Assembly (NCBI GenBank): GCA_052388375.1 | Contig: JBQTIG010000081.1 | Coordinates: 20,215-84,214, forward strand | DNA length: 64,000 nucleotides | Direction: 5' to 3' | From: Planctomycetaceae bacterium | GTDB lineage: Bacteria; Planctomycetota; PLA2 | Part shown: piece by piece, positions 4,193 to 56,585 of the stretch | Position numbering within the stretch: the stretch's first letter is position 1 | Layout: each line of letters opens with the position of its first letter | The notes under the pieces: model-generated | What the model was told of the DNA's origin: nothing | The model's database searches: none | Seen by the model: the letters and a program-made list of their open reading frames with translations, nothing else | Position numbers and translations under genes: made by a program

Positions 4193-4803
4193 TCGCCCTT
4201 CTCCTGCTGGTACTTGGTCGTCTTGTCGACCACGAGTTGACCGTCATCGGCGACGTAGACCTTGAAGCGTTCGAGGGGGCGCGGGGCAGGACCCTCGAAG
4301 TTGATCCCGGTCGGATAGAACCCCGAGCCGTGGCAGGGGCACTTGAACTTCCGGTCCGCGTCGAGCCAGTTGGGCGTGCAGCCCAGGTGCGTGCAGATCG
4401 TCGAGAGCGCGTAGAGGACGCGCTTCCCGTTGTACTCCATGTTGGCGATCCAGACCTGGTTCTTGTCCTTGTGCTTCTCGCTCACGGTGTCGCGGGGGTA
4501 CTCCTCGAGAGGGCCGGCCTTGAAGGTCTGCTTGGGATCGAAGGAGACCCGCGGAAAGAGGAACGAGACCAGCATGCCGATCCCGGTGACCCCCGCCCAG
4601 CCGAAGAGCCCCCAGCCCGCGGCGAGCCAGAAGGTGTCGCGGCGCGTGGGAAGCGCCGGGGCTTCGAACGGCGTCGCGCCCGGCGGCATCGGATCGATCT
4701 TCTCGGGTTCTTGCGTCCCCTTCTTCACCGCGGGAAGGCCGGTGCGGAGTCCCAGCCGGGAATCGGCCGCGGCGTTGGGATTGACTTCCTTCGGCTCTGC
4801 CAT
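4159..4803 (-). CDS. Rieske [2Fe-2S] iron-sulfur protein with a Tat signal anchor
   Basis: Start at ATG (cat 4801-4803), MAEPKEV... Twin-arginine motif TRRDTFWLAAG followed by a TM helix. Rieske boxes CTHLGC and CPCHGS. The upstream part of ORF 4159..5097 is Arg/Ser-rich read-through and is not coding. Confidence 0.85.
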   Translation of the reverse strand: MAEPKEVNPNAAADSRLGLRTGLPAVKKGTQEPEKIDPMPPGATPFEAPALPTRRDTFWLAAGWGLFGWAGVTGIGMLVSFLFPRVSFDPKQTFKAGPLEEYPRDTVSEKHKDKNQVWIANMEYNGKRVLYALSTICTHLGCTPNWLDADRKFKCPCHGSGFYPTGINFEGPAPRPLERFKVYVADDGQLVVDKTTKYQQEKGEWDNPDSYIAL

Positions 4804-4807
4804 GGCG

Positions 4808-7800
4808 CTACCGGTCCTTCTCCGAGTAGTGGTTGAGAATGTAGTCGCGGAGCGCGCGCAGCTGCTCCTCCGCGGCGGCGTCGAAGAACTGCGGGTCCTG
4901 CGCCTGGCCCTTGGCGAAGAAGGAGGGCATGGCGGTTCCCGGCTGCAGCTTGCCGGGGTTCCAGAGCCACTTCTCGATCCACTCCGCGCGCAGACGCCCC
5001 TCCCGGGTGTGGCGGAAATCCGGCGCCCGGTTGCCGATGGGGACCTTGGGATCGGTGCTGTGGCAGGACTTGCACTGGTACTCGGTGAACATCGCATTGG
5101 CCATCTCCCGCCGCGTCGTGACCGTACGATCCACCTTCTTCGCGCGGTCGTCCGGGTCGCCGACCTTGAGGCGCGCCGCGGCGGCCAGGGGGATCTCCTT
5201 GCCCTCCCGCAGGAGCCCGTCCGCCGCCTTCTCCTCGAAAGGATAGGGGACTCCGCTCAGCGCCGCGAAATAGGCCACGAGCGCCCGGTCCTCGGCGTCG
5301 GTGAAGTGGAACGTGGGCATGCGGATCGAGTGCCAGGGACGGATCTCGTACGGAGTCTTGAAGAACTCGAAGAGCCACGCGGGGCGGGTCTTGAGCCCCT
5401 GGCCGAGCAGGTCGGGCGGGCGCCACTTCGCCTCCGCGATGGCGGGCCAGACGTCCGCTCCCTTCCCCTCGATGATGTGGCACGCCTGGCAGTTGTAGCG
5501 GCTCACCACCTTGCGCCCCTCGAGGATCACCCGCTGGCGCGCGTCGGGCTTGAAGGACGCCGCGTCCACCGGGTCCTCCACCAGCCCGAGGAGGAAGATC
5601 GACAAATCGTGCGCCTCCTCCGGCGTGAAATCGAAGCGGGGCATCTTGAGCCGGTCCAGGGGCAGGTCCGCCCGCGGCATTCCGAGGTCGTAGATGCGCG
5701 GGTTGACCATCTTGGCGTAGGCGAACTCGAACCGTCCGTGCTCGATGGGCGCGTGGTTGAACTCGAGCCGCTCGATGGACTTGCTCCCCCACTTCGTCAG
5801 CTCGGTCCCGATCGGCGTCGCGTCCTTGAAGGACTCCATCTGGTGGCACCCGAAGCAGCCGTAGTGCGCGACTAGCTTTCGGCCCACGTACTGCGTGCGG
5901 TCCTCCTCGCTCATGCCGGCGACGATCCGGATCGCATCTTTCGTCGATTCCTGCTGCTCGGATACCTTGAGCTCCTCGGCGATCCGGCGCAAGATGCCCT
6001 GGTCGCCGGTCACCGGGTCGGAGCTCCGCAGCGCCTCGAACTCCGGATTCTTGAGCGTCATCAGGTAGGCGGCGATGTCGCGCGCCTCTTCGTCGGTGAG
6101 ACGCAGATCGGGCATGCTGGTGTCATGCCAGTACCCGCGCGGATCCTTGAGCCACGCGACCAGCCAGGAGGCCTTCACCTTCGAGCCGATGCCCCCCAGC
6201 GCCGGTCCGTGCTGGCGCGACATGCGGTCGCCCCAGCCGTAGAGGCGCTGCGTCCTTGGGTCGGTCCAGGCGCGGAGCTTGTCCGCCGCGATCGCCAGCT
6301 CCGGCGTCGCGAGCGGCACGTCGTGACAGGCGATGCAGGCCTTGGCCTGCCCGCCGCTCGCGCCGTAGTCGCCGACGATGAGCCGCTCGCCCTTCTTGGG
6401 ATCGCCGAGGACCGGCGTCTCCCCCGCCCCCCCCTTCGCCTGCGCGAGGAGGTACTGGACGATGGCGTAGGCTTCCGACTCGCCCCACGCCTTGCCGTCC
6501 ACCGGCTCGGTCCGGTAGCCCCCCTCGGCGAAGCGGTAGCTGAAGGTGTGGCTGTTGTTGGAGAGTTCCCAGAACCGCGGCATGCGCGTGTCGGGACGGA
6601 ACGCCTTGGGGTTGTACACCCACTGCAGCAGGAACGCTTCGTCCGTCTTCGCCGTGATCGGGTCGAGGGGCGGACCGACCTTGGGACGCTGACCCTGCAT
6701 GAGCGGGTAGATGACGGGATCGAGCTTGTGGCAGCCGTAACAGCCGAAGCGGAGGAAGTTGTCCTGGCCGCGCTCGAGTTGCGACGGGCGGTAGGGCGCC
6801 TTCTTCTCGGGGATGAGGATGCGCCGCGAGGTGTCCAGGTCGGGGTCGTTGTTGAACTCCCGTGCGTGGTCCTCGTAGTCGAGGGTGTCGGGCAGCCCCT
6901 CCCGCGGCGCGCCAAGATGCGCGTGGAGGTACTCCTCTTCGGGCGAGGCGTAGACGCCGTCCTTGTGGCACTTGAGGCAGGAGGATTGGACGAGGGCGAG
7001 CGGGAGCTGCGGGTAGTTCCAGTACTGCAGCTCGGTCTTCGTGCGGCCGAGCCCTTTCCAGCGCGCCTCGGTCGCTTGGTCGGGGACGAGGCCCTCGTGG
7101 ACACTCCAGGCCCCGTCGTGGCCCGCCTGCATCGCCTCCTCGAGGGTCATTTGCGCATTGGCGGGCAGGTGCCGGTGCTCGGCGTGGACGCGCTCCGTCG
7201 TCATCCAATCGTCGACCGCGAGAAGCGGCGGGGTGTGCCAGGCGCGGCCGAAATCGGTCGACCAGCCGCGGCCCAGGTGGCAGACGGTGCAGCCGAACGT
7301 CTCGTAGGGGTGCGGGGAGTCGGAGCCCACCATCGACTCCATGTGGGGGTGGGCGCGCCAGTGGCTCGCCATCCCCTGGAGCGCGGCGAGGTAGTAGTCG
7401 CCGACGGAACGGCCCTTGGGGGACTCCTTCCAGGTGCCGTCCTCGAGCCGCTCGAAGCGGCGCCACACCTTGCTGGAGGTCCTTTCGTCGAGGCCGATCG
7501 TGCCGTCGCTGTCGTCGTAGCTCTCAAAGAGGGTGTCCAGCGCGGCGTGGTGGATCGCCACCGTGCGCAGGAGCCCCTCCTCGTGCGGGAAGCGGGAATC
7601 CGGGGGCACCTTGGGCCAGATCGACTCCAGCAGGCCGAAGACGAAGCGGTAGACCGCCTGCTCGAACTTCTCGACCTTCGTCGGGTCCCCCGCCGGCAGC
7701 GCGAGGATCTCCACCGGCCACTTCTCCGGCTCGAACCCGGCGCGCGCGATCCCGATGTGGCATGTGCCGCAGCGGTCCACCTTCTTCGGCGTCGCGAACT

Positions 7801-8533
7801 CGTAGTTGTCGACGATGTTGTCGAGCACGACCTGCTCGACCTTGGTCGGCGGCGCCAGGAAGTCGAGGAGCGGGATGTTGCGCGCGGGATGGAAGCTCGC
7901 CTTGCGTTGGCGTGCCTCCACGGTCAGCTTGAGACGCGCCAGTTCCGGGCTCCTGCGCTCCTGGTCGCGCAGGGCGTCGAGCTCCTGCAGCTTCGACTTC
8001 TTCGCGTCGAGGAGCGCGTCGCGGCTGGCCGTGGCGAGCTGCAGCGCGTCCCGCAGGCGGTGTTCGCGGTCCCGCGAGACCTCCAGCTTGTGGAGCCAGG
8101 CGTCGCGCTCCTCGGGAGTGGAAGCCTCGTGGACGAAGTAGTCCGCTTCCGTCGTGTACTGCTTCTGCCCCTTGTAGTCGAGCTCGGCGGCGTAGCGCCC
8201 CGACTCGGCCAAGCGCAACTCGGCCTCGATCCTCTCCAGGTCCGCCTTCTGCGCGTCGAACCTCTCCTGGGCGGCCTTGAGCAGCGCGTCGAGCTTCTCC
8301 CGGTCCTCCTGGGTGCGGGCCTCGAGGAGCATCGCCTCCACCCCCAGCTTCCCCGATTCCCAGCGCAGCGCGGCGCGCTGGTCCGCCTTCCAGGGGCGCT
8401 CGAAGTCGGCCCAGATCATCCAGAGGATCGAGGCCATGAGGGCGGCCGTCACCCCGGCGAAGATCTGCATCAACCGCTTGGGGTTGTAGAAGGTGCCGGG
8501 GTCGTTGTTGGTCGCGGAGGGTCGCTTGCTCAC
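4808..8533 (-). CDS. Membrane-anchored octaheme c-type cytochrome with an N-terminal coiled-coil stalk and C-terminal class-I cytochrome c-like domains
   Basis: 1241 aa. One N-terminal TM helix (IFAGVTAALMASILWMIW), then about 230 aa of heptad-like E/R/L/A-rich sequence. Eight CxxCH motifs: CGTCH, CTVCH, CLKCH, CYGCH, CIACH, CFGCH, CQACH, CKSCH. The last two lie in domains with Met-ligand motifs (IRMPTFHF, GTAMPSFF) typical of mono-heme cytochrome c. Confidence 0.85.
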   Translation of the reverse strand: MSKRPSATNNDPGTFYNPKRLMQIFAGVTAALMASILWMIWADFERPWKADQRAALRWESGKLGVEAMLLEARTQEDREKLDALLKAAQERFDAQKADLERIEAELRLAESGRYAAELDYKGQKQYTTEADYFVHEASTPEERDAWLHKLEVSRDREHRLRDALQLATASRDALLDAKKSKLQELDALRDQERRSPELARLKLTVEARQRKASFHPARNIPLLDFLAPPTKVEQVVLDNIVDNYEFATPKKVDRCGTCHIGIARAGFEPEKWPVEILALPAGDPTKVEKFEQAVYRFVFGLLESIWPKVPPDSRFPHEEGLLRTVAIHHAALDTLFESYDDSDGTIGLDERTSSKVWRRFERLEDGTWKESPKGRSVGDYYLAALQGMASHWRAHPHMESMVGSDSPHPYETFGCTVCHLGRGWSTDFGRAWHTPPLLAVDDWMTTERVHAEHRHLPANAQMTLEEAMQAGHDGAWSVHEGLVPDQATEARWKGLGRTKTELQYWNYPQLPLALVQSSCLKCHKDGVYASPEEEYLHAHLGAPREGLPDTLDYEDHAREFNNDPDLDTSRRILIPEKKAPYRPSQLERGQDNFLRFGCYGCHKLDPVIYPLMQGQRPKVGPPLDPITAKTDEAFLLQWVYNPKAFRPDTRMPRFWELSNNSHTFSYRFAEGGYRTEPVDGKAWGESEAYAIVQYLLAQAKGGAGETPVLGDPKKGERLIVGDYGASGGQAKACIACHDVPLATPELAIAADKLRAWTDPRTQRLYGWGDRMSRQHGPALGGIGSKVKASWLVAWLKDPRGYWHDTSMPDLRLTDEEARDIAAYLMTLKNPEFEALRSSDPVTGDQGILRRIAEELKVSEQQESTKDAIRIVAGMSEEDRTQYVGRKLVAHYGCFGCHQMESFKDATPIGTELTKWGSKSIERLEFNHAPIEHGRFEFAYAKMVNPRIYDLGMPRADLPLDRLKMPRFDFTPEEAHDLSIFLLGLVEDPVDAASFKPDARQRVILEGRKVVSRYNCQACHIIEGKGADVWPAIAEAKWRPPDLLGQGLKTRPAWLFEFFKTPYEIRPWHSIRMPTFHFTDAEDRALVAYFAALSGVPYPFEEKAADGLLREGKEIPLAAAARLKVGDPDDRAKKVDRTVTTRREMANAMFTEYQCKSCHSTDPKVPIGNRAPDFRHTREGRLRAEWIEKWLWNPGKLQPGTAMPSFFAKGQAQDPQFFDAAAEEQLRALRDYILNHYSEKDR

Positions 8534-8546
8534 GGGACTCGCTTCC

Positions 8547-9638
8547 TCAGATGTTGAAGAAGAACTCCGGGATCGTGACGATGTACTTGAGATTGAAGAG
8601 CCAGCGCCCCAGCATCTTGAGCGGCAGCGAGATCATGCAGAGCAGCAGCATGGCCACGATGGAGAACCGCACGAAGCCGAGGGGCTTGAAGAGCGGCTTC
8701 AGGACCGTCTTGGCGAGGATCGCGGGGCCGATGGCGAAGTAGCCCAGAACCATGAGGATGCCGAAGATCTCGCGCTGGAGCCAGTGCGCGGGCCGCCCCA
8801 GCTTGAGCATCTTGACCCAGACGATCTCGGAGACGTCGATGTTGTTGAGCGGCACCTGCAGGTGCGGATCCCACTTGTCGTAGGGGCCGAAGAAGTTCCA
8901 GTTCGCCCCTCGCAGGAAGGTGCCGATGAAGATGAGCACCACCCAGAAGATGAAGAACCCGAAGAGGAACACGGTGATCGAGAAGCGCCGCTCCTGGATC
9001 GTGAAGTACCCGTTGCCCTTCGGATTCATGTCCACGTAGGGGATCGCCACGAGCCCGACGATGATGAGGGTGGGGAAGACGACGCCGGCCAGCCAGGGGT
9101 CGAAATAGACCAGCATCTCCTGCAGCCCGAGGAAGTACCAGGGCGCCTTGGAGGGGTTGGGCGTGAAGGCCGCGGAGGCGGGCTCCTCCAGGGGCGCGCG
9201 GATGCCGACCGACCAGACCGTGAGCAGCGCGCTCACCGCGAGAAGGCAGATGAACTCGATCATCACCAGGTCGGGCCAGACCAGCACGGTCTCGCGGCGG
9301 TGGACCGCCTCCAGCGGCGGCTCGTCCCGCTCCGCCCGCTCGTCGTTGAGGGCGGCGCGGCGGAGGCAGAGCCAGAAGAGGAAGAGCACCGAGAAGACGA
9401 GCAGGACGATCGGGATGTTGTCCGGCTTGGTGATGACCTTCTTGAAGTTGTCGTTCCAGAGGCTCCCCACGAACCACCCGAGGAAGGCGAGGCCGATGAC
9501 TCCGGCCACCTTCGGGCGCGAGACGACCCGGTAGTACTTGAGCGCCAGCACGAGCGCCACCGAGGAGACCGGCAGCAGGATCTCCGGCCTCGTGAGGAAG
9601 GTGACCGCCGGGCGGATGACGTCTTGGAAGAGGTCCAT
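8547..9638 (-). CDS. Cytochrome b C-terminal half (b6f subunit IV-like, extended)
   Basis: 363 aa, multi-TM. It has a PEWY-region equivalent (KAPWYFLGLQEM) and the Qo-site region, and follows the b6-like gene. Confidence 0.75.
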   Translation of the reverse strand: MDLFQDVIRPAVTFLTRPEILLPVSSVALVLALKYYRVVSRPKVAGVIGLAFLGWFVGSLWNDNFKKVITKPDNIPIVLLVFSVLFLFWLCLRRAALNDERAERDEPPLEAVHRRETVLVWPDLVMIEFICLLAVSALLTVWSVGIRAPLEEPASAAFTPNPSKAPWYFLGLQEMLVYFDPWLAGVVFPTLIIVGLVAIPYVDMNPKGNGYFTIQERRFSITVFLFGFFIFWVVLIFIGTFLRGANWNFFGPYDKWDPHLQVPLNNIDVSEIVWVKMLKLGRPAHWLQREIFGILMVLGYFAIGPAILAKTVLKPLFKPLGFVRFSIVAMLLLCMISLPLKMLGRWLFNLKYIVTIPEFFFNI

Positions 9639-9647
9639 GGCTTCCTG

Positions 9648-10463
9648 CTACAGGGGCCCGGAGATGCCGCCGTCCTTGCGCACGCGCCAGAAGTGGACCG
9701 CCATGAGCGTGATCGCGATGACCGGGACGAACACGCAGTGGAGCACGTAGAAGCGCAGGAGCGCGTTCTCGCCCACGAACCTCCCTCCCAGGAGAGCGAA
9801 CCGCACGTCCGACCCCGCCGTGACCAGGGGGATCCCGTCCAGCTGGAAGAGCATCGCACCTGGCCCCTCGTGGCCCTGGAAGGGCGTCGCGCGCGCCATG
9901 TTGGAGCCGACCGTCACCGCCCAGATGGCCAACTGGTCCCAGGGGAGCAGATAGCCGGTGAAGGACAAGAGCAGGGTCAGCACGAGGAGGAGCACGCCGA
10001 TCACCCAGTTGAACTCCCGCGGCGGCTTGTAGGAGCCGGTCATGAAGACCCGGAACATGTGGAGCCAGACCGTGAGCACCATGGCGTGCGCGCCCCAACG
10101 GTGGAGCTCGCGCATGTAGCCGAGCGGGATGCTCTCGCGCAGCTCCTGGATGTTGTTGTAGGCCTCGGCGGCGACCGGCTTGTAATAGAACATGAGGAGG
10201 ATGCCGGTCACCGTCTCCACGAGGAAGAGGAAGAAGGTGACCCCTCCCATGCACCACGTGAAGGAGAGCGCAATGCCGCTCTTCCGGACGCGCACCGGAT
10301 GCAGGTGAAGGAAGACGTTGCTCAGCACGGCGAGCGCGCGGTTGCGCTGCGTGTCGGGATAGCCGTGCCGGAAGATCGACTTCCAGAACTGCGTCTGCCG
10401 GAGCTTTCCGAAGAGGCTCACCTTCGGTTTGCCGGGCTTGGGGGATTGGGTTGCCGTCGCCAT
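9648..10463 (-). CDS. Cytochrome b6-like protein (N-terminal half of cytochrome b, heme bL/bH ligands)
   Basis: 271 aa with four TM helices and conserved His pairs (LHLHPVRV..., [18 protein letters not shown]..., VLHCVFVP). ATG at cat 10461-10463. Confidence 0.8.
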
Positions 10464-10477
10464 GGTCGTTCAGCTGC

Positions 10478-11494
10478 TCAAGGCGTCCTCTTCCATCGGG
10501 CCAGCGCCGCGCGCGCGCGCTGGCGCACTTCCGGGTCTCCTTCGTGGTCCGCGTCCGCCCGCCTTTGCAGGAGCGCCAGCAACTCGGGATCGTCCCCGGC
10601 CTCGAGGAGCACCAGGGTGTCGATGGTGTGGAGGATCAGGTTTCCCTGCACGGCGTACTGGTCCATCCCGCTGCCGTCGCGGTCGAACTCGATCTTGCCC
10701 AGCCGTTCGCGGTCGAGCATGGTCTTCAGGACCGGGAGCGCCGCCTCCCGCTCCCGCGCCCGTCCCAGGATGATCGCCGCCTGGAAGCGCACATCCTCGT
10801 TCCGGTCCCCCAGGAGATCGAGGGCCAGTTCGCGGGTCTTGGACGAGAGGATGATGCGGCCCCCCTCGGGCTCCCCCGGCGCCTGGTCGAGGAGGGCGAG
10901 GGCGAGGAGGGCGGCCTGGCGCGTGCCCGGGTCGCTGTCCCGGGCCATCGTCAGCATCCTCTCGCTCGAGCCGTGGTCCCGAAAACGCCCCAGGGCGAGA
11001 AGCGCGTAGGATCGGAGGACCGGGCTGGCGTCGTCGAGTGCGGAACGCACCGCCCCGAGCGAGGCCGGGTCCCCGATGAGCGCCAGCGTGAGCAGGAGGT
11101 GCTGCGCGGGTCGGGGGTCTTCGTCCCGGCGCGCCTTGGCGAGGGACTCCTCGAGGGCGCGGACCAGCCGGGGGTCGCGGAACTCCTCGGGCACCGTGAA
11201 TACCCCGCCGTTCTGGACGGCCGCCTTCCTCACCCGGGCGCTCACCTCGAAGGCCGCCTGCCAGCGGCGATTGACCGTGTCCCCCCTGAGCATCTCGACG
11301 AAGTCGAGGGCGGTGGTCGGCTCGTTCCCCACCAGCCACTTCACGCCGACGAAGATCCCCACCGCGACGCAGGTGATGAGGAGCGGGATGGCGAAAAACT
11401 GCACGACCGTCGCCATCACGCCGGCCTTGGGGACGCTGCCGAAATCGGCGTACGAGGCGGGGGTTCCCTTGGGCTCGACGGGCGTCTCGGTCAT
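10478..11494 (-). CDS. Membrane-anchored HEAT/PBS-lyase-like repeat protein, first gene of the respiratory operon
   Basis: 338 aa. An N-terminal TM helix (VMATVVQFFAIPLLITCVAVGIFV) is followed by repeated alpha-helical A/L-rich units with LALIGDP, LLALGR and LLALALLDQ motifs typical of HEAT-like repeats. Confidence 0.5.
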   Translation of the reverse strand: MTETPVEPKGTPASYADFGSVPKAGVMATVVQFFAIPLLITCVAVGIFVGVKWLVGNEPTTALDFVEMLRGDTVNRRWQAAFEVSARVRKAAVQNGGVFTVPEEFRDPRLVRALEESLAKARRDEDPRPAQHLLLTLALIGDPASLGAVRSALDDASPVLRSYALLALGRFRDHGSSERMLTMARDSDPGTRQAALLALALLDQAPGEPEGGRIILSSKTRELALDLLGDRNEDVRFQAAIILGRAREREAALPVLKTMLDRERLGKIEFDRDGSGMDQYAVQGNLILHTIDTLVLLEAGDDPELLALLQRRADADHEGDPEVRQRARAALARWKRTP

Positions 11495-11627
11495 GGCGAA
11501 GGGACCTGGCGGACTCGTCCGAAAACCGAAAGTCCGTGGACAGATCCTGGGCGTCGTAACCTACTGGCCTGGCTCGCTCTCCGCAAGTTTTCCCAGGCCG
11601 GCGTGCTATCCTCCCGGTCCACGCCGC

Positions 11628-12080
11628 ATGCGCATTTTCACCCTTCTCGGCGGGCCTTCCGCCATCGGCGAGGCGGAGCGCCTCTCCACCGCGGTCCGTG
11701 CCTTCAACGCGGGGGTGGATTTCCGGTTGCGCTTCCTCCACATCGAAATCGACGAGATGCACGCGACCCCGGCTTCCGCGCAGGCGGAGCTCGCGGCTCG
11801 GGTCGCGCGTGCCCAGATCACGGCCATTCCCGATCGCGGAGCCCTGTTCGCGGCCGCGGCGCTCGGGCTAGCCATCGCCGAGGCGCGGCCGGACCTGGTC
11901 GTGGTCGTGGGGCACGGGGAGCTGGCCGAGCCGGGGGTCGCCGCCGCGGCCGCGGCAGGGTATCGCCTTGCCCTATTCGGGCATGGCCGGCGGCCGGCGC
12001 ACGGGGCGGTCGACCTGGGGGAGGACCCCGAACAGGCCCTCGAGACGATGCAGACCCTGGTACGGGAGATCCAGAAATGA
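11628..12080 (+). CDS. Small hypothetical protein with weak resemblance to the N-terminal Rossmann half of UDP-GlcNAc 2-epimerase-like enzymes
   Basis: ATG at 11628: MRIFTLLGGPSAIGEAERL...ARPDLVVVVGHGELA...RLALFGHG... Its stop TGA (12078-12080) overlaps the ATG (12077) of the carbamoyltransferase. Confidence 0.35.
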   Translation: MRIFTLLGGPSAIGEAERLSTAVRAFNAGVDFRLRFLHIEIDEMHATPASAQAELAARVARAQITAIPDRGALFAAAALGLAIAEARPDLVVVVGHGELAEPGVAAAAAAGYRLALFGHGRRPAHGAVDLGEDPEQALETMQTLVREIQK

Positions 12081-13759
12081 ACGTCCTGGGCATCGGAGGG
12101 CTGGGATACAAGGACAGTTCGGCGGCCCTGCTCTCCGACGGGCACGTCATCGCCGCCGCCGCCGAGGAGCGCTTCACCGGAACCAAGCACGAGGGGGGGT
12201 TCCCCCACGAGGCGGTCCGGTTCTGCCTCGGGCGGGCCGGGATCACCCACCGCGACCTGGAGGCGGTGGCCGTGGCGGGCAACCCCTGGCTCCCGATGCG
12301 CGAAAAGGTTATGAAGTGGTACGGCGAGGGGTTCCTGAAGTCCCGCACCGCCAACGTCTACCGTATCTTCCAGGACGAGGGGCACCGGCTCGTGGACTAC
12401 CTGCGGACTCTCGAGGGGATCGCGGACGCAGGCGTCGAGGTGAAGGAGGTGCGCCATGTCCTCTCCCACATGGCGGCCGCGGGCTTCGCCTCCCCATTCG
12501 AGACCGCCGCTGTGCTCTGCCTCGACGGGCGCGGCGAGATCTCCACCACCGGGTACGGGCGGGTGGCGGGCCTCGAACTCGAGACCTACGCCATGGCACG
12601 CATGCCCGACTCCCTGGGCCTGCTCTACGCGCTGGTGGCGGACCACCTCGGCTTCTCCGATCTCGACGACGAGTTCCGGCTCATCTCCATCTCCCCCACC
12701 GGGACACCGACCCTCCTCGAGCCGATGCGCGGCCTCGTGCGCGTGGCGGGGGACGCCACCTACACCTTGAACCCCGACTACTTCGGATACCACCAGGGGC
12801 GCGCTTACCTCTCCGAGCGGTTCGCCTCCGAGTTCGGTCCCCCGCGCCCCTCCAACCTCCCTCTCGAAGATCGCCACCGCGACCTGGCCGCCAGCCTCCA
12901 CGCCGTCATCCTCGAGGTGGTGCTGGAGATGGCCCGGAAGGCGCGGGAGCGGTCGGGCCAGTCCCGGCTCTGCCTTGCGGGGAGCCTCGCGCAAAACTGG
13001 GCCCTGGTGGGCGCGATCTGCGAGGCGAATCTCTTCGACGATGTCTACGTTCCGCCCTCGCCGGGGGACGACGGCATCGCCCTGGGCGCCGCGCTCCACC
13101 TCTACCACGCGGATCGGAAGCGCCCGCGCACCCAGCCGCTCCTGCGCGCGGATCTCGGCCCCGCCTACGCCGAACGGGAGATCGCGGACGAGCTCGCGCG
13201 ACTCAAGCTGAAGGCGGCGAAGCCGGCCGACCTGGTCACGGCGGTGGCGGAGCGGATCGCGCGGGGCGAAATCGTGGGGTGGTTCCAGGGGGGCGCGGAG
13301 TTCGGCCCCCGGGCGCTGGGCCACCGGAGCATCCTCGCCGACCCGACCAACCCGGCCACCCGGGCGCGCCTCGTCGCGTCGGTGAAGATGCGCTCGGAGG
13401 TGCACCCCTTCGGGCTCAGCGTGGCGCGCGAGGCGGTGGCGACGCTTTTCGCCGACGTCACGGAGTCCCCCTTCCTGGAGCGGACCGGCCTGCTGCGCGA
13501 GGCGGTGCGGGCGAAGCTGCCCGCGGTCGCCTCGCCGAACGGCCGCACCCGCGTGCAGGTGGTGGACGCGTCGCGCCAGCCGCTCTTCCACAAGATCCTG
13601 CTGGCCCTCGGCTCCCGCAACGGCGTGCCCGCGGCGCTCAACACCTCGCTCAACGAGGCGGGCCGCCCCATCGCGACCTCCCCGCGCGACGCCATCGCGT
13701 GCCTCTACACCAGCGGCCTCGACGCCCTCGCCCTGGGGCCCTTCGTCGTCTCCAAGTGA
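12077..13759 (+). CDS. Carbamoyltransferase (NodU/CmcH/NovN family)
   Basis: 560 aa. MNVLGIGGLGYKDSSAALLSDGHVIAAAAEERFTGTKHEGGFP..., plus the C-terminal YrdC-like domain motifs (GWFQGGAEFGPRALGHRSIL, NTSLNEAGRPI). Confidence 0.8.
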   Translation: MNVLGIGGLGYKDSSAALLSDGHVIAAAAEERFTGTKHEGGFPHEAVRFCLGRAGITHRDLEAVAVAGNPWLPMREKVMKWYGEGFLKSRTANVYRIFQDEGHRLVDYLRTLEGIADAGVEVKEVRHVLSHMAAAGFASPFETAAVLCLDGRGEISTTGYGRVAGLELETYAMARMPDSLGLLYALVADHLGFSDLDDEFRLISISPTGTPTLLEPMRGLVRVAGDATYTLNPDYFGYHQGRAYLSERFASEFGPPRPSNLPLEDRHRDLAASLHAVILEVVLEMARKARERSGQSRLCLAGSLAQNWALVGAICEANLFDDVYVPPSPGDDGIALGAALHLYHADRKRPRTQPLLRADLGPAYAEREIADELARLKLKAAKPADLVTAVAERIARGEIVGWFQGGAEFGPRALGHRSILADPTNPATRARLVASVKMRSEVHPFGLSVAREAVATLFADVTESPFLERTGLLREAVRAKLPAVASPNGRTRVQVVDASRQPLFHKILLALGSRNGVPAALNTSLNEAGRPIATSPRDAIACLYTSGLDALALGPFVVSK

Positions 13760-14538
13760 CGGAGCGCCCGGCGTTGCTGGAGTTCGCCGTGGCGGCCGCT
13801 CGCGAGGCGGGCGCCTTCGCGATGCGGCTCTTTCGGTCCGACGCTCTGCAGGTGAAGGAGAAGCAGGACAGGTCGCCGGTGACCCAGGCCGACCGCGGCG
13901 CCGAGCAGCTCCTGCGCGAGCGCATCCACGCGGCCTACCCGGGCGACGGCATCCTCGGCGAGGAGTACGGCGAGGAGCCGAGCCGCACGGGACGGATCTG
14001 GATCCTCGATCCTATCGACGGCACCCGGGCCTATCTGCGCGGCATCCCCTTCTTCTCCGTCCTGGTCGGCGTGGAGGAGGAGGGAGAGAGCGTCGCGGGG
14101 GTGGCGCACTTCCCCGCGCTCGGCGAGACGATGGCCGCGGCGCGGGGGCAGGGCGCCGTCTGGATGCCGGGGGAGGGGGGCGGGGCCCGCCCCGCGCGCG
14201 TCTCCGCCGTTTCCGCGCTCGCGGACTCCTTCCTCTGCCTCACCTCGGCGCGCGGCTTCCTGAAAACGGGCCGCGCCCACGCGCTCGAGCGCCTCAACAC
14301 CGCCACCGCGCTCCAGCGCGGGTATGGGGACGCCTACGGCCACATGCTCGTCGCCACCGGCCGCGCGGAGCTGATGCTCGACCCGATCATGGCGGTCTGG
14401 GACTGCGCGGCCCTGGCGCCCATCGTGGAGGAGGCGGGCGGGCGCTTCACCGACTTCACCGGCGCCCGGACGATTCGCGGCGGCAACGCGCTCTCCACCA
14501 ATGGCCGCATCCACGACGCGGTGCTGGCGCTGCTGTAG
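13756..14538 (+). CDS. Inositol monophosphatase/HisN-like family phosphatase
   Basis: GTG at 13756 overlaps the upstream stop. Motifs WILDPIDGT, EEYGEE and WDCAAL characteristic of the IMPase/FIG superfamily. Confidence 0.75.
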   Translation: MTERPALLEFAVAAAREAGAFAMRLFRSDALQVKEKQDRSPVTQADRGAEQLLRERIHAAYPGDGILGEEYGEEPSRTGRIWILDPIDGTRAYLRGIPFFSVLVGVEEEGESVAGVAHFPALGETMAAARGQGAVWMPGEGGGARPARVSAVSALADSFLCLTSARGFLKTGRAHALERLNTATALQRGYGDAYGHMLVATGRAELMLDPIMAVWDCAALAPIVEEAGGRFTDFTGARTIRGGNALSTNGRIHDAVLALL

Positions 14539-14688
14539 GAGCCTATCCGAAAAACCGGCGCCAACACCCAGGCCGAGCGCGCGGGCCGAGCGCGAGCCCC
14601 GACGACGAAGCCGTAGTGGCGAACTACGGCGATGGAGGAGAGGCGAAGCGATCGGCCCGCGCATCCGGCCGAATGTAGCCGGGCGTTC
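14538..14688. mobile_element. MITE-like ~150 bp repeat element, copy 1, with terminal inverted repeats GGAGCCTATCCGAA / TTCGGATAGGCTC
   Basis: It starts at the stop codon of the phosphatase gene. Its termini are perfect inverted repeats. Internal palindromic segments (gccgtagtggcgaactacggc) are present. A second copy in reverse orientation lies at 32282-32442. Confidence 0.75.
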
Positions 14689-14735
14689 GGATAGGCTCTT
14701 GTACCGCCCGCCTCCGCCCGGGACGCGGGCCGAAC

Positions 14736-17700
14736 TCAGGGCAGGAGGTCGGGACGGATCCGCTCCGCCTGGGCCGCGTGCGGCGACGAAGGGAAGGAGC
14801 GGCCGCGGTCCTTGAGGAAGGGCAGCGCGCGCAAGCGCAGGTTCGGACTCTGCACCGTGCCGACCACGCGCACCTCGTAGACCATGCGATGCCAGAGGTT
14901 GCGAATCGTGGAGAGGATGGGAATGTCGAGGAGGCGCGGAAGATCGATGAGGCGGGTCACCTGGGGGTTGATCACCAGGTCGAGGTCGCCGTAGATCGAC
15001 GCGGTCCCGCTGCCGTAGATGTCGCTCACCGGAGTGGAGAGGTGCATCCGCTTCACGTCGATGGTCTCCCCGCGAATCTCATACTCGATCACGGCGTCCC
15101 GGAAGCGGGGGCGCGCGCGGATCGGCGTCACGGCGCCCAGGACGCTCAGGATGGTGCGAAAGAACGGGATCTCGAACAGCTCCCCTTCACGCACGCGGAT
15201 CTCCCCGCGCCCCGCCATGTCGACCGCGTCTCCGCTCGGGGACTCCACCTCGATGACCGCGTCGACGCGGCCCGCCATGGGGTCCTCGGCGGGGCGGTCC
15301 CCGCGCAGGAACTTGCCCAGATCGACGTCGGCCGCCTGGAGGCGGATGCGAAAGGCGCCCGGATCGGCCAGATGGATCTGCACCTCGCCGCGCAGGGATC
15401 CGTCGTAGAAGCGGCCGACGACCTCCCCCAGCCGCACGTGGTACGGGTCGATCTCCAGATTGAGAGCGAGCCCCTCGATCTGGCGGCCGAAGGCGAGGAG
15501 CGTCCCGTCCAGGATCGCGCCCCGGATGGCCAGCCCCTCGCCGAGCCTTCCTTCGCCGACAAGCAGTTGGCCATGCAGGTCTGCGAGGCCGGCGGGGAGT
15601 TTCATGTTGAGGCCGCGGTAGCGGATCAGCCCGGAGAAGGTGGGCGTCTCCCCCGGCGTCAACGTGATGGGGGCCAATTCCAGTGCTCCCGTGGGTTCCA
15701 GGGTCCCCTGCTGCTCCTGGAGCATCGCCTGCCGCCGCAGATCGACGGCGCCGGCCAGGACGACACGGCCGTCGGCCCGGTTGAAATTGAGCTCGAACGC
15801 CTCCAGGTCGATGCGCACGTTGCTCCCCAGGACCTTCCCGATCCCGGATCCGAGCAGGGCGCCCAGGTGCGCCACCGGATGGATCCCCTTGGCGTCGAGG
15901 AGGACGCGGCCCCCGCCGCCCCGCTCCAACGCCAGCCGTGCCTCGCGGACGCGCACGTAACCCCCGTCCGCCTCGATCCAGAGTTCGCCCGAGCGAAACG
16001 TTCCCGGGGCAAAGCCGATGGGGCCGCCGCGCACGCGCATCGGGGTTCCTCCCACGACGGCGTTCAGGTCGAGGTCGGACGCCTCCGCATCGATCTCGAT
16101 GCGTTCCTCGGGGCGCTTCCGAAGCGCGCGCAGCTTCAGGTCGAGCATGCTCGGCATGGAGACCGAGAGGCGGCGCAACTCCCGTCCAAGCTCCGGCATC
16201 GTCTCGCCGAGGATCTCCTGGAGTTCCGGCTGCAGCCCGAGCCGCTGGAGGCTCACCGCAAGGTCGAGGACCCCGTCGCCTTGGATGAGTCCGTCCACGG
16301 CGAGGCTCCCCTGGGGAAGCAGCCCGCGCAGCTCCCGGACGCGCACGATGCCCTGCCGGTAGGAGAGGGCGCCTTCCAGGTTCCGGATGGGGTAGTCGAT
16401 TGCGCCATAGCCGGCGAGGGAGACGGTGCCTCCCAGCTCCAGGTCGATGTCGGCGCTCTCGGCGGACCGGACAAAGACATCCGCGTCGATGCGTCCCGAA
16501 GGCCGCACGCGCCTCCAGAGCGACTCCACCGACCAGCCGGCCACGCTGGAGCGGCCCACCGCGGCTTCGAGATCGGGCCCAAGCACGAGACCCTTCAGGT
16601 GCACGTGGACGTTGAGGTCGTCCTTCCCCGCCTCGTCCTCCAGCACCCAGCCCGCCGCGACGACGCGCCCGCCGTCCCGCGCGGTTCCCTCGAGGCGCAC
16701 CAGCTCCATTTCGCGCCGCGACTTCCCTCCCGCGGATTTCGGGGGAAGGGCCCGGGAGACGACGAGGCCGGTGAGTCCGTCGACGTGCAGCGGGAAGGCG
16801 TGGTAGGCCAGGGTGCAGTCGCGGAGGAAGACCTCGTAGTCGGCGAGGGCGACGACGAGCCCGAACGCATCCTGCTTCACGTGTACGTTGACGTACTCCG
16901 CGCTCCCGTCGAGCGTGAACCCGCGATAGGGGATGCCCTCCCGCGCGCTCGCGAACGCCTCGTTCAGGTCCGCATCCACGGGGAGAGCCAGGACCCGGAT
17001 CCGCACGTCGGCGTCCTCTGGCTCCCCGGGCGCTTGCAGGTAGGCCACCACCCGGCCCCGTCCCGCGACCCGGACGCGGTCCGGCGCCCCGGGCCGCGGG
17101 GCGCGGACGGGACGGGATGCGTCGATCCGCACGAGATCGACGACGCGGGCCAGCCCGCGAGGCGTGCGTACGCCGGAGCGCAGCTCGATTCGGCCGCGGC
17201 ACTCCTCGAGGGGATAGCGGAATCCGTAGCGGCGGCCCGTGGCGTCGTCGAGGGGCCCGGCATAGTTGAAGTGTCCCCCGTCGAGCTCCAGGACGGCGTG
17301 GACGTTCTCCGGCAGCCCGAGCCGTCGCGAGATGGAGAGATCGAGGTCGAAGGTCCCCGCCGGCTCGTACTTGTCCACGATGCTCTCGACCGTCTTGGAG
17401 GCCAAGAGCAGCCGGAGGTCCGCGGTGGTCGCGTGCAGATTCGCGCCGAAGAGGTGCAGATCGAGGTCGGTCCCCGCCCGGTCCAGGATCGCGTCGAAGC
17501 TTGCCCCGACCTGGCCGGTGCGGCCGCTGGGGCTCACGTAGCTTCCCTTCAGCCCGATCAGCTTGAGCCGCCCGCCGTCGAGCACGACCATGCCGCGCCC
17601 GTCCCGGAAGCCGAACGGGTAGCCCTCGGGCCTCCCGCTCTGCAGGTTGCCGAAACGGCCGGCGAGTCCGGAGAGATCCGCGCGCCCGTAGAGATAGGAG

Positions 17701-18515
17701 AGTCGGAAAGGCCGGAGTTCCACGTGCGCCTCGACGACCACGTCGGCGCTGCCGCCGAGGCGGATCGGCGGCAGGGGGCTGCCCCAGAAGGGGCCGAGCC
17801 GTTCCGCCGCGTCCTCGTCCCACCGCACCCGGGCCGCCTGGGCGCGTCCCGCGATGCGCGCCGCCTCCGGGTCGTAGGAGGCGGTGACGAGGACCGGCCC
17901 CAGCACTTCGGAGCCCAGCTCCGCTTCCACGCGATAGAGTCCGCCGTCGTACCGCGCCTCGAGAAACGCCACGCCGAGGTCGACGGTGTCCGTCTCCCGG
18001 AGCACGCCCCTTCGCACGAACTGGACGCGGTTCCCGGTTCCGGGGAGGACGGTGACATGGGGGAAGCGCGCCCGTGGGCCGCTCGGCCTGTCCGCCTCCT
18101 CCGTGAACACGCCGCGCACGCCGCCAGCCTGGTCCGGAGTCTTGAGCCGGATGGTGACTCCCGCCAGCTCCACATGGGGGATCTCGAGATGCCCCTGGAG
18201 CAGCCGCTGATGGTCGACGTAGAGGAGCGCGCGCTCGATGGTAGCGGCGGGTGTCCCGTCGGGGTAGAGCAGGCGGAGCCCCTGGAGCTCGACGCCCTTG
18301 CCGAGGCGCGGGACGACGGCCTTGAGCTCGAACGGACCGTTCAGGATGCGGGCGAGGGCGGCGCGAACCTCCCGGTCGATCTCGGTGGGATCGAGGCGAT
18401 GGGCGAGGAAGAGGCCGGCGCCTGCCGCCACCCCCAGGATCAGGAGAGCGAAGACGCGGCCGAACGTCAGCCGGCGTCGAGTCAACGAAGAGAGCTTCCC
18501 ACAGTTTGGGCTCAA
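14736..18515 (-). CDS. TamB/AsmA-like giant envelope protein (translocation and assembly module-like)
   Basis: 1259 aa. N-terminal signal-anchor (FALLILGVAAGAGLFLA), a long beta-rich repetitive body, and a size identical to E. coli TamB. Family assignment is by architecture and is not confirmed. Confidence 0.5.
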   Translation of the reverse strand: MSPNCGKLSSLTRRRLTFGRVFALLILGVAAGAGLFLAHRLDPTEIDREVRAALARILNGPFELKAVVPRLGKGVELQGLRLLYPDGTPAATIERALLYVDHQRLLQGHLEIPHVELAGVTIRLKTPDQAGGVRGVFTEEADRPSGPRARFPHVTVLPGTGNRVQFVRRGVLRETDTVDLGVAFLEARYDGGLYRVEAELGSEVLGPVLVTASYDPEAARIAGRAQAARVRWDEDAAERLGPFWGSPLPPIRLGGSADVVVEAHVELRPFRLSYLYGRADLSGLAGRFGNLQSGRPEGYPFGFRDGRGMVVLDGGRLKLIGLKGSYVSPSGRTGQVGASFDAILDRAGTDLDLHLFGANLHATTADLRLLLASKTVESIVDKYEPAGTFDLDLSISRRLGLPENVHAVLELDGGHFNYAGPLDDATGRRYGFRYPLEECRGRIELRSGVRTPRGLARVVDLVRIDASRPVRAPRPGAPDRVRVAGRGRVVAYLQAPGEPEDADVRIRVLALPVDADLNEAFASAREGIPYRGFTLDGSAEYVNVHVKQDAFGLVVALADYEVFLRDCTLAYHAFPLHVDGLTGLVVSRALPPKSAGGKSRREMELVRLEGTARDGGRVVAAGWVLEDEAGKDDLNVHVHLKGLVLGPDLEAAVGRSSVAGWSVESLWRRVRPSGRIDADVFVRSAESADIDLELGGTVSLAGYGAIDYPIRNLEGALSYRQGIVRVRELRGLLPQGSLAVDGLIQGDGVLDLAVSLQRLGLQPELQEILGETMPELGRELRRLSVSMPSMLDLKLRALRKRPEERIEIDAEASDLDLNAVVGGTPMRVRGGPIGFAPGTFRSGELWIEADGGYVRVREARLALERGGGGRVLLDAKGIHPVAHLGALLGSGIGKVLGSNVRIDLEAFELNFNRADGRVVLAGAVDLRRQAMLQEQQGTLEPTGALELAPITLTPGETPTFSGLIRYRGLNMKLPAGLADLHGQLLVGEGRLGEGLAIRGAILDGTLLAFGRQIEGLALNLEIDPYHVRLGEVVGRFYDGSLRGEVQIHLADPGAFRIRLQAADVDLGKFLRGDRPAEDPMAGRVDAVIEVESPSGDAVDMAGRGEIRVREGELFEIPFFRTILSVLGAVTPIRARPRFRDAVIEYEIRGETIDVKRMHLSTPVSDIYGSGTASIYGDLDLVINPQVTRLIDLPRLLDIPILSTIRNLWHRMVYEVRVVGTVQSPNLRLRALPFLKDRGRSFPSSPHAAQAERIRPDLLP

Positions 18516-23407: not shown

Positions 23408-23459
23408 GCCGCAAGCCTATCCGAAATCGCCGGGATCCCGGCGCCCCGGCGCGCGGTCC

Positions 23460-32119: not shown

Positions 32120-32281
32120 GGGGAGAGGATACCGTCCTCGAGGGAATGCCGGCAGGCGCGACGCGCGGAAGGGGGGCGGGGGCGGGCGCGACTCCGCCGC
32201 GAGCCGCGGGGAAGAGGCGCGAGAAGGGGGCCTGGGGCGTTTGCGCGGGAGAGCCGCTCCTTCCGGCGAGGCTCTCCGTTA

Positions 32282-32442
32282 GGAGCCTATCCGAAAACCC
32301 GGCTCCATTCGGCCGGCTGCGCGGGCCGATCGCTTCTCCTCTCCTCCATCGCCGTAGTTCGCCAATACGGCTTCGTCGTCGCGGCTCGCGTTCGGCCCGC
32401 TCGCTCGGCCTCGGTGTTGACGCCGGGTTTTCGGATAGGCTC
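32282..32442. mobile_element. MITE-like repeat element, copy 2 (reverse orientation of copy 1), inserted between divergent ispD and ispF
   Basis: Near reverse-complement of 14538-14688 (roughly 85-90% identity by eye), with the same GGAGCCTATCCGAAAA / TTTTCGGATAGGCTC termini. Confidence 0.75.
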
Positions 32443-32467
32443 TAGGCAAGAGTAGGATGGTCCCCCC

Positions 32468-56369: not shown

Positions 56370-56374
56370 TGGAT

Positions 56375-56585
56375 CTCTGCGCTACGGGAGCCGCCCGAAC
56401 CCCCAGTCCGGCTCGGTGCTGCTGCCGTCCGGCTGGTTCGGGATCTCCGCGGCGTTGCTGTTGGTCCCGGTGGCATCGACGAGCCAGAGTCGGGCCGGAC
56501 TCAACTCGTTGTTCTGGCGCGCGAAGACGATGCGGTCCGACATCGGCGACCACGACGGCGTGAGGTCGGACTGGTGCGCCCCGCC
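56375..56585. repeat. About 200-bp direct repeat, copy A (3' end of the beta-propeller lipoprotein gene)
   Basis: About 85% identical to 60392-60595 in the same orientation. The copies are 4020 bp apart. Confidence 0.7.

What the first reader, a model, noticed from the sequence alone, without database searches (positions are those of the whole stretch)
14538..14688. Previously unannotated MITE-like element family (two full inverted copies in 64 kb)
A roughly 150-160 bp element is bounded by perfect terminal inverted repeats (GGAGCCTATCCGAAAA...TTTTCGGATAGGCTC) and has internal palindromes. It occurs at 14538-14688 and, reverse-complemented, at 32282-32442. Both copies are intergenic and abut gene ends exactly: copy 1 begins at the stop codon of the phosphatase gene. 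Such elements can act as terminators, recombination substrates or small-RNA sources.
Basis: seen in the sequence. Interest (0 to 1): 0.6.

Follow-up and report, generated by a model that had tools for sequence, protein, structure and literature searches.

The report
Small IS5-type hitch-hiker transposon (MITE)
The two 160-base inverted copies are real and are ordinary miniature transposons (MITEs) whose ends match those of IS5-family insertion sequences; they belong to a family, not found in a limited literature check, that is seen mainly in Planctomycetota genomes.

Summary
A 160-nt element lies at 14539-14698 (+) and, inverted, at 32283-32442 (93% identical). A ~47-nt end fragment lies at 23413-23459. 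Each full copy folds into one long hairpin (about -102 kcal/mol, z -8 to -10).

The MITE interpretation is supported:
- **Ends.** The terminal 21 nt (GAGCCTATCCGAAAAACCGGC) are identical to the left end of 898-bp metagenomic insertion sequences. Those encode a two-frame IS5-family transposase (DUF4096 + DDE; NF033580) and carry 3-bp TAA duplications. The named relatives ISAzo38 and ISPrst3 have near-identical ends (GAACCTATCCC...).
- **Duplications.** Copy 2 has a perfect 3-bp duplication (TAG/TAG); copy 1 has TAG/TTG.
- **Relatives.** Homologous 163-179-nt elements with TTA/TAA duplications occur in Planctomycetota genomes assembled from metagenomes (MAGs) and in unclassified metagenome contigs. 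The hairpin is kept there by compensatory changes.
- **Empty site.** Relatives have only 28 nt, containing TTAG, between ispD and ispF, where the window carries copy 2.

Copy 2 sits between divergent ispD and ispF, 25 nt upstream of the ispF ATG. No transposase lies in the window, and the genome-wide copy number could not be measured. This is a new member of a known kind, of low-to-moderate interest.

The parts
14539..14698 (+). MITE copy 1 (160 nt; 'forward' orientation of the family alignment)
   Evidence: family HMM E 2.7e-25
14536..14538 (.). Left flank TAG of copy 1; also the stop codon of the inositol-monophosphatase-family gene (13756-14538, +)
   Evidence: homology to the close relative L122 stops at 14535
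14699..14701 (.). Right flank TTG of copy 1 (imperfect duplicate of TAG)
14539..14559 (+). Left terminal inverted repeat of copy 1, GAGCCTATCCGAAAAACCGGC; 21/21 identical to the left end of the 898-bp IS5-family elements (L081 and others)
14678..14698 (-). Right terminal inverted repeat of copy 1 (outer 13 nt perfect, then two mismatches)
32283..32442 (-). MITE copy 2 (160 nt, inverted relative to copy 1), in the ispD/ispF divergent spacer, 25 nt upstream of the ispF ATG (32468)
   Evidence: family HMM E 5.4e-28
32280..32282 (.). Target-site duplication TAG, ispD side of copy 2
32443..32445 (.). Target-site duplication TAG, ispF side of copy 2
32283..32303 (+). Terminal inverted repeat of copy 2 (one arm of the perfect 21-nt pair GAGCCTATCCGAAAACCCGGC)
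32422..32442 (-). Terminal inverted repeat of copy 2 (other arm)
23413..23459 (-). Probable truncated third copy: about 47 nt resembling the right end of the element (13-nt core AGCCTATCCGAAA exact; about 69% identity overall, counted by eye), abutting the TAG stop (23460-23462, - strand) of the gene at 23460-25733
   Evidence: not significant with the family HMM, so tentative

Best explanation
[quoted passage not shown] It is mobilised in trans by a DDE transposase of the IS5 family, of the small (~0.8-0.9 kb) two-reading-frame type represented by ISAzo38 and ISPrst3.

Inferred mechanism: the transposase recognises the ~21-bp terminal inverted repeats (GAGCCTATCCGAA..CCGGC), excises or copies the element, and inserts it at a 3-bp target. 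The target is usually TTA or TAA and here is TAG, and it is duplicated on insertion.

This host has 70% G+C, so such A/T-containing triplets are very rare and lie largely at stop codons and in spacers. That explains why copies sit right against TAG stops.

What is shown:
- the anatomy of the element;
- the identity of its ends with those of transposase-bearing insertion sequences;
- the duplications;
- homologous elements in other genomes;
- absence of the element from the orthologous spacer of relatives.

What is inferred:
- actual mobilisation;
- the existence of a matching transposase in this genome;
- any effect of the very stable hairpin on neighbouring genes (a possible roadblock or stabiliser in the phosphatase 3' region and in the ispF leader).

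The two copies differ by 7%, and copy 1 has a degraded repeat and a degraded duplication, so the insertions are probably old.
For: - **The copies.** Two 160-nt copies are 93% identical and inverted.
- **Terminal repeats and duplications.** Copy 2 has a 21-nt perfect repeat with a TAG/TAG duplication. Copy 1 has a 13-nt perfect repeat with TAG/TTG.
- **Collection scans.** The end pattern was scanned against two public collections. It found elements of 85-275 nt with both ends, and elements of 898 and 908 bp with the same ends.
- **Transposase.** The 898/908-bp elements encode Pfam DUF4096 + DDE_Tnp_1/_1_2 and NCBIfam NF033580 'IS5 family transposase'. Their left end equals the copy-1 end 21/21.
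- **Named relatives.** ISAzo38 and ISPrst3 have ends TAA|GAACCTATCCC...GGGATAGGTTC|TAA or TTA, with the transposase stop codon inside the repeat.
- **Flanks.** 3-bp flanks are identical in 17 of 28 elements, against 7.1 +/- 2.0 by shuffling. These include the non-TWA cases TTG, TAT and TAG.
- **Family homology.** The window element aligns over its full length to L082 (E 4e-13) and over both ~50-nt subterminal parts to the 176-179-nt family.
- **Empty site.** Three relatives have a 28-nt ispD-ispF spacer containing TTAG; the window has ...GTTAG[element]TAGGC....
- **Close relative.** A relative with 90% nucleotide identity has no element after the phosphatase gene.
- **Target scarcity.** TAA, TTA and TTAG occur only 17, 19 and 2 times in 64 kb.
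Against: - No IS5-family transposase is encoded in the 64-kb window.
- The source genome could not be searched, so neither the copy number nor a resident partner is known.
- The two big scans found no further copy of this exact 160-nt subfamily. The nearest relatives are only 60-72% identical.
- The insertion sequences with matching ends come from other organisms. They share only the outer ~21 nt with the MITE, and the copies seen carry frameshifts or stop codons.
- Copy 1 lacks a perfect duplication, and it lies at a synteny break rather than at a clean empty site.
- TAG is not the usual TWA target.
Confidence: 0.85

Rival explanations
1. The element is primarily a structured RNA or DNA module (a regulatory leader, an RNA-stabilising or terminating hairpin, or a small-RNA gene) kept by selection. 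Its transposon-like ends would be incidental or ancestral.
For: - The whole-length hairpin is conserved across 13 family members from genomes with about 47-70% G+C.
- 95% of cells are paired, and 13 of 43 pairs show changes on both sides, including transversions. No shuffle out of 500 reached this, and slid controls score about 0.03 against 0.227.
- There is a weak strand bias: 29 G-U pairs on the 'forward' strand against 9 when the other strand is folded, and the forward strand is the more stable in 11 of 13 sequences.
- Copy 2 lies in the ispF leader or promoter region.
Against: - There is no Rfam match, even at E <= 1.
- There is no terminator-like U-tract or promoter consensus.
- The two copies have opposite orientation and unlike contexts: the 3' end of convergent genes versus a divergent promoter spacer.
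- The most conserved part is the terminal repeat shared with insertion sequences, together with target duplications. An RNA gene does not explain either.
- Long hairpins are typical of bacterial MITEs (review PMC10969869).
- The G-U bias partly reflects the strand on which the structure was predicted.
Confidence: 0.08
2. It is a local inverted duplication of an intergenic segment within this 64-kb region, not a mobile family.
For: Only two full copies are seen, 17.6 kb apart and inverted. No further copy of the same subfamily turned up in the public scans.
Against: - Similarity stops exactly at the terminal repeats, and no flanking DNA is shared.
- Copy 2 has a 3-bp duplication.
- Homologous elements with the same ends and duplications are present in many unrelated MAGs.
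- The ends equal insertion-sequence ends.
Confidence: 0.02
3. It is a REP/BIME-type element mobilised by a RAYT (Y1) transposase, or a palindrome-associated element of the IS200/IS605 type that inserts next to a fixed tetranucleotide such as TTAG without duplication.
For: The element is a palindromic hairpin. Both full copies have TAG immediately on their left on the + strand, and copy 2 has TTAG.
Against: - REPs are 20-40 bp with GTAG/CGTC heads (abstract of PMC3733652). This element is 160 nt.
- It has true terminal inverted repeats that match a DDE-transposase insertion sequence.
- The family shows 3-bp direct duplications of variable sequence (TTA, TAA, TTG, TAT, TAG). IS200/IS605-type insertion does not produce these (own knowledge).
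- No Y1 transposase was seen next to any member.
Confidence: 0.02

Closest known systems
IS5-family insertion sequences of the ISAzo38 / ISPrst3 type (small, two-frame transposase; by my recollection of ISfinder these features fit the IS427/IS1031 subgroups)
   Same: - The terminal repeat is of the same type: GA(G/A)CCTATCC(G/C)..AAA.
- The flanks are 3-bp T-A-rich duplications (TAA/TAA at ISAzo38).
- The 898/908-bp metagenomic elements share the first 21 nt exactly with the window element.
   Different: - The window element is 160 nt and has no coding capacity.
- It shares nothing with these insertion sequences beyond the outer ~21 nt.
- Its whole length is self-complementary.
- Subgroup assignment was not tested against ISfinder.
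Bacterial MITEs in general (Correia/NEMIS, RUP, ERIC, Chunjie of Geobacter uraniireducens, QMITEs of Coxiella)
   Same: It is short, has terminal inverted repeats and short direct repeats, lies in intergenic positions, forms a stable hairpin, and has truncated derivatives (review PMC10969869).
   Different: - The sequence family is different, and the host phylum (Planctomycetota) is not mentioned in that review.
- The target here is TAG, in a genome with 70% G+C.
- High copy number in one genome, shown for those families, is not shown here.
Tourist-like MITEs of the eukaryotic PIF/Harbinger superfamily (own knowledge: TWA 3-bp duplication; transposase distantly related to IS5)
   Same: It has a 3-bp TWA-type duplication, and it is a short hairpin-forming non-autonomous derivative of an IS5-like DDE transposon.
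   Different: This is a prokaryotic element, and there is no sequence relationship. The resemblance is one of mechanism only.

Membership tests
Prokaryotic MITE | Short (<~500 bp) and without coding capacity | tested here: met
   The element is 160 nt. The only ORFs across it are spurious high-GC frames with no Pfam match.
Prokaryotic MITE | Terminal inverted repeats | tested here: met
   Copy 2 has a 21-nt perfect repeat. Copy 1 has 13 perfect nt followed by a degraded stretch.
Prokaryotic MITE | Target-site duplication | tested here: met
   Copy 2 has TAG/TAG and copy 1 has TAG/TTG. Across the superfamily, 17 of 28 elements have identical 3-mers, against 7.1 +/- 2.0 in shuffles.
Prokaryotic MITE | Ends match an autonomous insertion sequence that encodes a transposase | tested here: met
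   The ends match 21/21 nt of the left end of the 898-bp IS5-family elements. Those elements come from other organisms, not from this genome.
Prokaryotic MITE | Multiple dispersed copies in one genome | tested here: inconclusive
   The window holds two full copies plus one probable fragment in 64 kb. The rest of the source MAG could not be read. A Logan contig carrying the identical IspF starts 24 nt inside the element, which is weak evidence.
Prokaryotic MITE | Presence/absence polymorphism at orthologous sites | tested here: met
   The ispD-ispF spacer is 28 nt, with TTAG, in three relatives. The element is also absent after the phosphatase gene in a relative with 90% nucleotide identity, but synteny breaks there.
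IS5 family (ISAzo38/ISPrst3-like) as the mobilising partner | Terminal repeat of the GA(G/A)CCTATCC type with a 3-bp T-A-rich duplication | tested here: met
IS5 family (ISAzo38/ISPrst3-like) as the mobilising partner | A cognate transposase gene present in the same genome | not testable with these tools
   There is none in the window (tblastn), and the source genome is not available in the searchable collections.
REP/BIME (RAYT-mobilised) | 20-40-bp palindrome with a GTAG/CGTC head, with no terminal inverted repeats or duplication | tested here: not met
   The element is 160 nt and has terminal repeats and 3-bp duplications. The definition is taken from the abstract of PMC3733652.
Any Rfam RNA family | Covariance-model match | tested here: not met
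   There is no match at gathering score in the window, and none at E <= 1 around copy 1.

The most novel reading that the evidence does not exclude
The family may be more than selfish DNA. Its ~160-180-nt hairpin is kept by compensatory substitutions across hosts of very different base composition, with a weak bias for G-U pairs on one strand. It could therefore be a mobile structured-RNA module that is co-opted wherever it lands. Here that would mean acting as a leader element 25 nt upstream of ispF in the isoprenoid (MEP) pathway, and as a 3' stabiliser or roadblock after the phosphatase gene. Copy 1 would also have remodelled a gene end, since the phosphatase is two residues shorter than in its closest relative and uses the flanking TAG as its stop.
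Probability: 0.1. Interest if true: 0.5.

Novelty: new member of a known kind. Interest (0 to 1): 0.25.

Why it matters
This is chiefly an annotation and genome-dynamics point. It defines a MITE family with IS5-type ends in Planctomycetota and, with shorter variants, in Chloroflexota. A full-text search for the end sequence found no paper, and a 2024 review of prokaryotic MITEs does not mention Planctomycetes.

- **Assembly and annotation.** Such elements may break short-read assemblies, mark rearrangement points and create spurious ORFs in high-GC genomes.
- **Target choice.** In a very GC-rich genome a T-A-rich target confines insertions to stop codons and spacers. That lets the element sit within a few bases of essential genes such as ispF without destroying them.
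- **Conserved repeat.** The transposase reading frame runs into the repeat, which may help explain (inference) why it is conserved across phyla.

None of this is surprising to a specialist in mobile elements.

Tried and rejected
- **Rfam.** A scan of the whole window at gathering score, and of copy 1 at E <= 1, found nothing.
- **Promoter and terminator scans.** Sigma-70 promoter and intrinsic-terminator scans around both copies found no sites.
- **Transposase in the window.** tblastn of the IS5-family transposase against the window found nothing.
- **Plasmid search.** A DNA search of the element against 72,556 plasmids gave only chance-level short hits.
- **Viral scan.** A scan with the 15-mer gave 27 single, chance-like hits, plus one 130-nt pair in L003.
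- **Single-end hits.** Loci with one end only in the genome scan were checked for adjacent transposases; none was present. Several hits (L030, L046, L053, L063) are coding matches in a conserved reading frame (L046/L063 translate as ...AYPNFRLIM...). L055 is a 21-nt tandem repeat.
- **Source contig.** Retrieval failed. IspF is found only on a 1.6-kb Logan contig, and the phosphatase is 'not on record'.
- **AsmA-like homologues.** A search meant to locate the other side of the copy-1 synteny break returned nothing at E <= 1e-30.
- **Inversion between the copies.** This was considered as the cause of the mismatched flanks. It was rejected because the observed flank triplets do not fit the exchange pattern an inversion would give (reasoning).
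- **Weak HMM hit.** The hit at 43463-43517 lies inside a high-GC3 open reading frame (42818-44140) and was dismissed.
- **Literature.** A search for the end sequence found no paper.

Full report
**1. The observation**

The window (70.4% G+C) contains a 160-nt sequence at 14539-14698. Its reverse complement lies at 32283-32442, and the two are 93% identical.

- **Boundaries.** Similarity stops sharply at GAGCC...GGCTC on both sides.
- **Terminal repeats.** Copy 2 has a perfect 21-nt terminal inverted repeat (GAGCCTATCCGAAAACCCGGC). In copy 1 the outer 13 nt are perfect, and then the right arm carries two changes.
- **Structure.** Either strand folds into a single long hairpin with an 8-bp apical stem. 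The energies are -102.8 and -102.2 kcal/mol, against about -65 and -69 for shuffles (z -10.4 and -8.4).
- **Chance.** With up to 3 mismatches the 15-mer end occurs six times in the window, against 0.6 expected.
- **A third site.** One extra match (23413-23427, 13-nt core exact) extends into a ~47-nt stretch that aligns with the right end of the element at about 69% identity, counted by eye. It is probably a truncated third copy.

**2. Context**

- **Copy 1** lies between convergent genes. On one side is an inositol-monophosphatase/histidinol-phosphatase-family gene (13756-14538, +), whose TAG stop (14536-14538) touches the element. On the other is a large gene with a weak, sub-threshold AsmA match (28.7 bits against a cut-off of 29.8; 14736-18515, -).
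- **Copy 2** is not at a gene end. It lies between divergently transcribed ispD (-; the start is probably the GTG at 32086, by comparison with relatives) and ispF (+; ATG at 32468), 25 nt upstream of the ispF start.
- **Flanks on the + strand.** Copy 1 reads TAG|element|TTG and copy 2 reads TAG|element|TAG. Copy 2 therefore has a perfect 3-bp direct repeat, and copy 1 has one with a single mismatch.

**3. Relatives elsewhere, and the autonomous partner**

The end pattern GAGCCTATCCGAANNNCCGGC was scanned once against the species-representative genomes (29 loci) and once against the JGI metagenomes (58 loci).

- **Chance hits.** Some matches are coding matches or a tandem repeat.
- **Short elements.** Many other hits are short elements of 85-275 nt with both ends. 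They occur in MAGs of Planctomycetota and Phycisphaerae (JAADGH01, VRUL01, CAIVHJ01, JBAUDW01, DYLR01), in Chloroflexota (DAOTWD01) and in unclassified metagenome contigs.
- **Flanks.** Their flanks are mostly TTA/TTA or TAA/TAA, but TTG/TTG and TAT/TAT also occur. Seventeen of 28 non-redundant elements have identical 3-mers on both sides, against 7.1 +/- 2.0 when the right flanks are shuffled.
- **Full-length elements.** Six metagenome loci carry elements of 898 bp (L074, L079, L081, L089, L092) or 908 bp (L080) with the same ends, and with TAA/TAA in L081 and L089.
- **Transposase.** These elements encode a two-frame transposase: Pfam DUF4096 followed by DDE_Tnp_1/DDE_Tnp_1_2, and NCBIfam NF033580 'IS5 family transposase'. 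The copies seen carry a stop or frameshifts.
- **End identity.** Their left end is identical to the copy-1 end over 21 nt.
- **Named relatives.** The best annotated matches of the transposase in plasmids are ISAzo38 (53% identity) and ISPrst3. Their ends read TAA|GAACCTATCCCGG...GGAATAGGTTC|TAA and TAA|GAACCTATCCCAAAAGG...GGGATAGGTTC|TTA.
- **Coding overlap.** In these elements the transposase reading frame runs into the right repeat (stop codon TAG of GGATAGG). This coding constraint may help explain why the repeat is so conserved across phyla (inference).
- **The window itself.** No transposase of this kind is encoded there.

**4. The window element belongs to a wider MITE family**

- It aligns over its full length to a 163-nt element in L082 (72% identity, E 4e-13). 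Both of its ~50-nt subterminal parts align to a 176-179-nt family present in several Planctomycetota MAGs and metagenome contigs. A profile of 13 members recovers them at E 1e-24 to 1e-54.
- Across these 13 sequences the long hairpin is maintained. Of all cells, 95% are paired, and 13 of 43 pairs carry changes on both sides, including transversions (AU to CG, GC to CG). No shuffle out of 500 reached this, and the covariation score is 0.227 against about 0.03 for slid controls.
- There is a weak strand bias: 29 G-U pairs on the 'forward' strand against 9 when the other strand is folded, and the forward strand is the more stable in 11 of 13. Part of this is a by-product of predicting the structure on that strand, so I do not build on it.

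**5. Source and empty sites**

- **Source.** The IspF and phosphatase proteins are 100% identical to proteins of an NCBI MAG named 'Planctomycetaceae bacterium' (contig of 90,576 nt). Its DNA was not retrievable.
- **The ispD/ispF site.** Three relatives (IspF 71-72% identical) keep the order ispD <- -> ispF-cysS with only 28 nt between the genes. That spacer reads ...GAGGTTAGCATTG.... In the window the matching place reads ...CCGTTAG[element]TAGGCAAGAG...ATG. Removing the element and one TAG restores a TTAG at a similar distance from the ispF ATG (22 nt, against 16). This is a distant but consistent empty site.
- **The phosphatase site.** A close relative (L122, GCA_974706745.1) is 90% identical in nucleotides over window 3758-14535, and it has no element after the phosphatase gene.
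  - Homology stops exactly at 14535, immediately before the TAG and the element, and the genes downstream differ.
  - The relative's protein ends ...LLAG, and nearly all other homologues checked also extend past ...LL. The window protein stops at ...LL.
  - So copy 1 sits at a synteny break and at a slightly shortened gene end, which fits its mismatched flanks. Whether the element caused the rearrangement could not be resolved (one search failed).

**6. Why the copies sit against TAG**

TAA, TTA and TTAG occur only 17, 19 and 2 times in 64 kb. Uniform expectation is about 1000 for each triplet and 250 for the tetramer. A transposase that prefers T-A-rich triplets has very few targets in this genome, and many of those are stop codons or spacers. 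The two full copies and the fragment all adjoin a TAG, and two of those TAGs are stop codons.

**7. Interpretation**

- **Best explanation (confidence 0.85).** This is a MITE mobilised in trans by an IS5-family DDE transposase of the ISAzo38/ISPrst3 type, with a 3-bp duplication. Mobilisation itself, and the presence of a partner in this genome, are inferred.
- **Rival: structured RNA.** This reading has some support from covariation. It fails to explain the shared insertion-sequence ends and the duplications, and it has no Rfam, promoter or terminator support.
- **Rival: local duplication.** Excluded, because no flanking DNA is shared and homologous elements with the same ends occur in unrelated genomes.
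- **Rival: REP/RAYT or IS200/IS605-type elements.** Excluded, because the element has true terminal inverted repeats and variable 3-bp duplications.

**8. Novelty**

MITEs derived from insertion sequences are well known (PMC10969869). The end sequence occurs in no paper of the searchable library, and that review does not mention Planctomycetes. This is therefore a new member of a known kind. Its interest is low to moderate: it is useful for annotation and for understanding rearrangements and assembly breaks in these MAGs, but it is not surprising.

Noticed in passing
window 14535/14536 versus L122 (GCA_974706745.1, CDEPTA010000283.1) position 10780: Nucleotide homology of 90% with a close relative runs for 10.8 kb and stops exactly at the left end of MITE copy 1, and the downstream genes differ (relative: a 95-residue ORF (10794-11081, -) and genes with Aminotran_3, porphobilinogen-deaminase, BatA and other Pfam domains; window: AsmA-like gene). 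The window's phosphatase is two residues shorter than the relative's and uses the TAG next to the element as its stop.
   Followed up: partly
window 23413-23459: A probable truncated copy (right-end fragment) of the same element, with an internal perfect palindrome CGCCGGGATCCCGGCG. It lies directly after the TAG stop of the gene at 23460-25733 (- strand).
   Followed up: partly
window 32087-32279: The ispD-ispF spacer holds about 190 nt of extra G-rich sequence besides the MITE (relatives have 28 nt in all). This includes a hairpin GGAGAGCC-N14-GGCTCTCC just beside the element. Its origin is unknown, and no repeat of it was seen elsewhere in the window.
   Followed up: no
window 56374-56585 and 60384-60595; also 61053-61130 / 61179-61256: There are 212-nt direct repeats (85% identical) 4 kb apart, plus nearby 126-nt-spaced repeats and inverted matches (I2, I3). 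The first copy lies at the 3' end of the ORF 56382-60035 (-), and the second lies outside the ORFs I called. They are unrelated to the MITE.
   Followed up: no
L081, L079, L092 (metagenome loci), left flank of the 898-bp IS: Three contigs share an identical 60-nt left flank of the insertion sequence but have different right flanks. This suggests assembly collapse or chimeras across a repeated element. The transposase frame in these copies contains an in-frame stop (…LRTGCQ*), and L080 needs two frameshifts.
   Followed up: no
L028 (Logan SRR34758881 contig, 1638 nt): A contig from an independent sequencing run carries an identical IspF. It begins 24 nt inside MITE copy 2, which is consistent with (but weak evidence for) an assembly break at a repeated element in the same organism.
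   Followed up: partly
L055 1374-1590 (Gemmatimonadales MAG): A tandem array of 21-nt units (GAGCCYRTCCGARSCYTCGGC) matches the search pattern by chance. It may be a 7-residue coding repeat and is not a MITE.
   Followed up: no
window 14739-16538 (- strand): The homologue search with the C-terminal 600 residues of the AsmA-like protein returned no hit at E <= 1e-30, not even the source MAG's own protein, although the ORF has strong coding statistics (GC3 0.89).
   Followed up: no
L003 10400-10529 (IMG/VR UViG 638154508_000001): A 130-nt element with the same ends (flanks TAA/TTA) lies on a 45-kb viral or prophage contig, so the superfamily also occurs on phage-like DNA.
   Followed up: no
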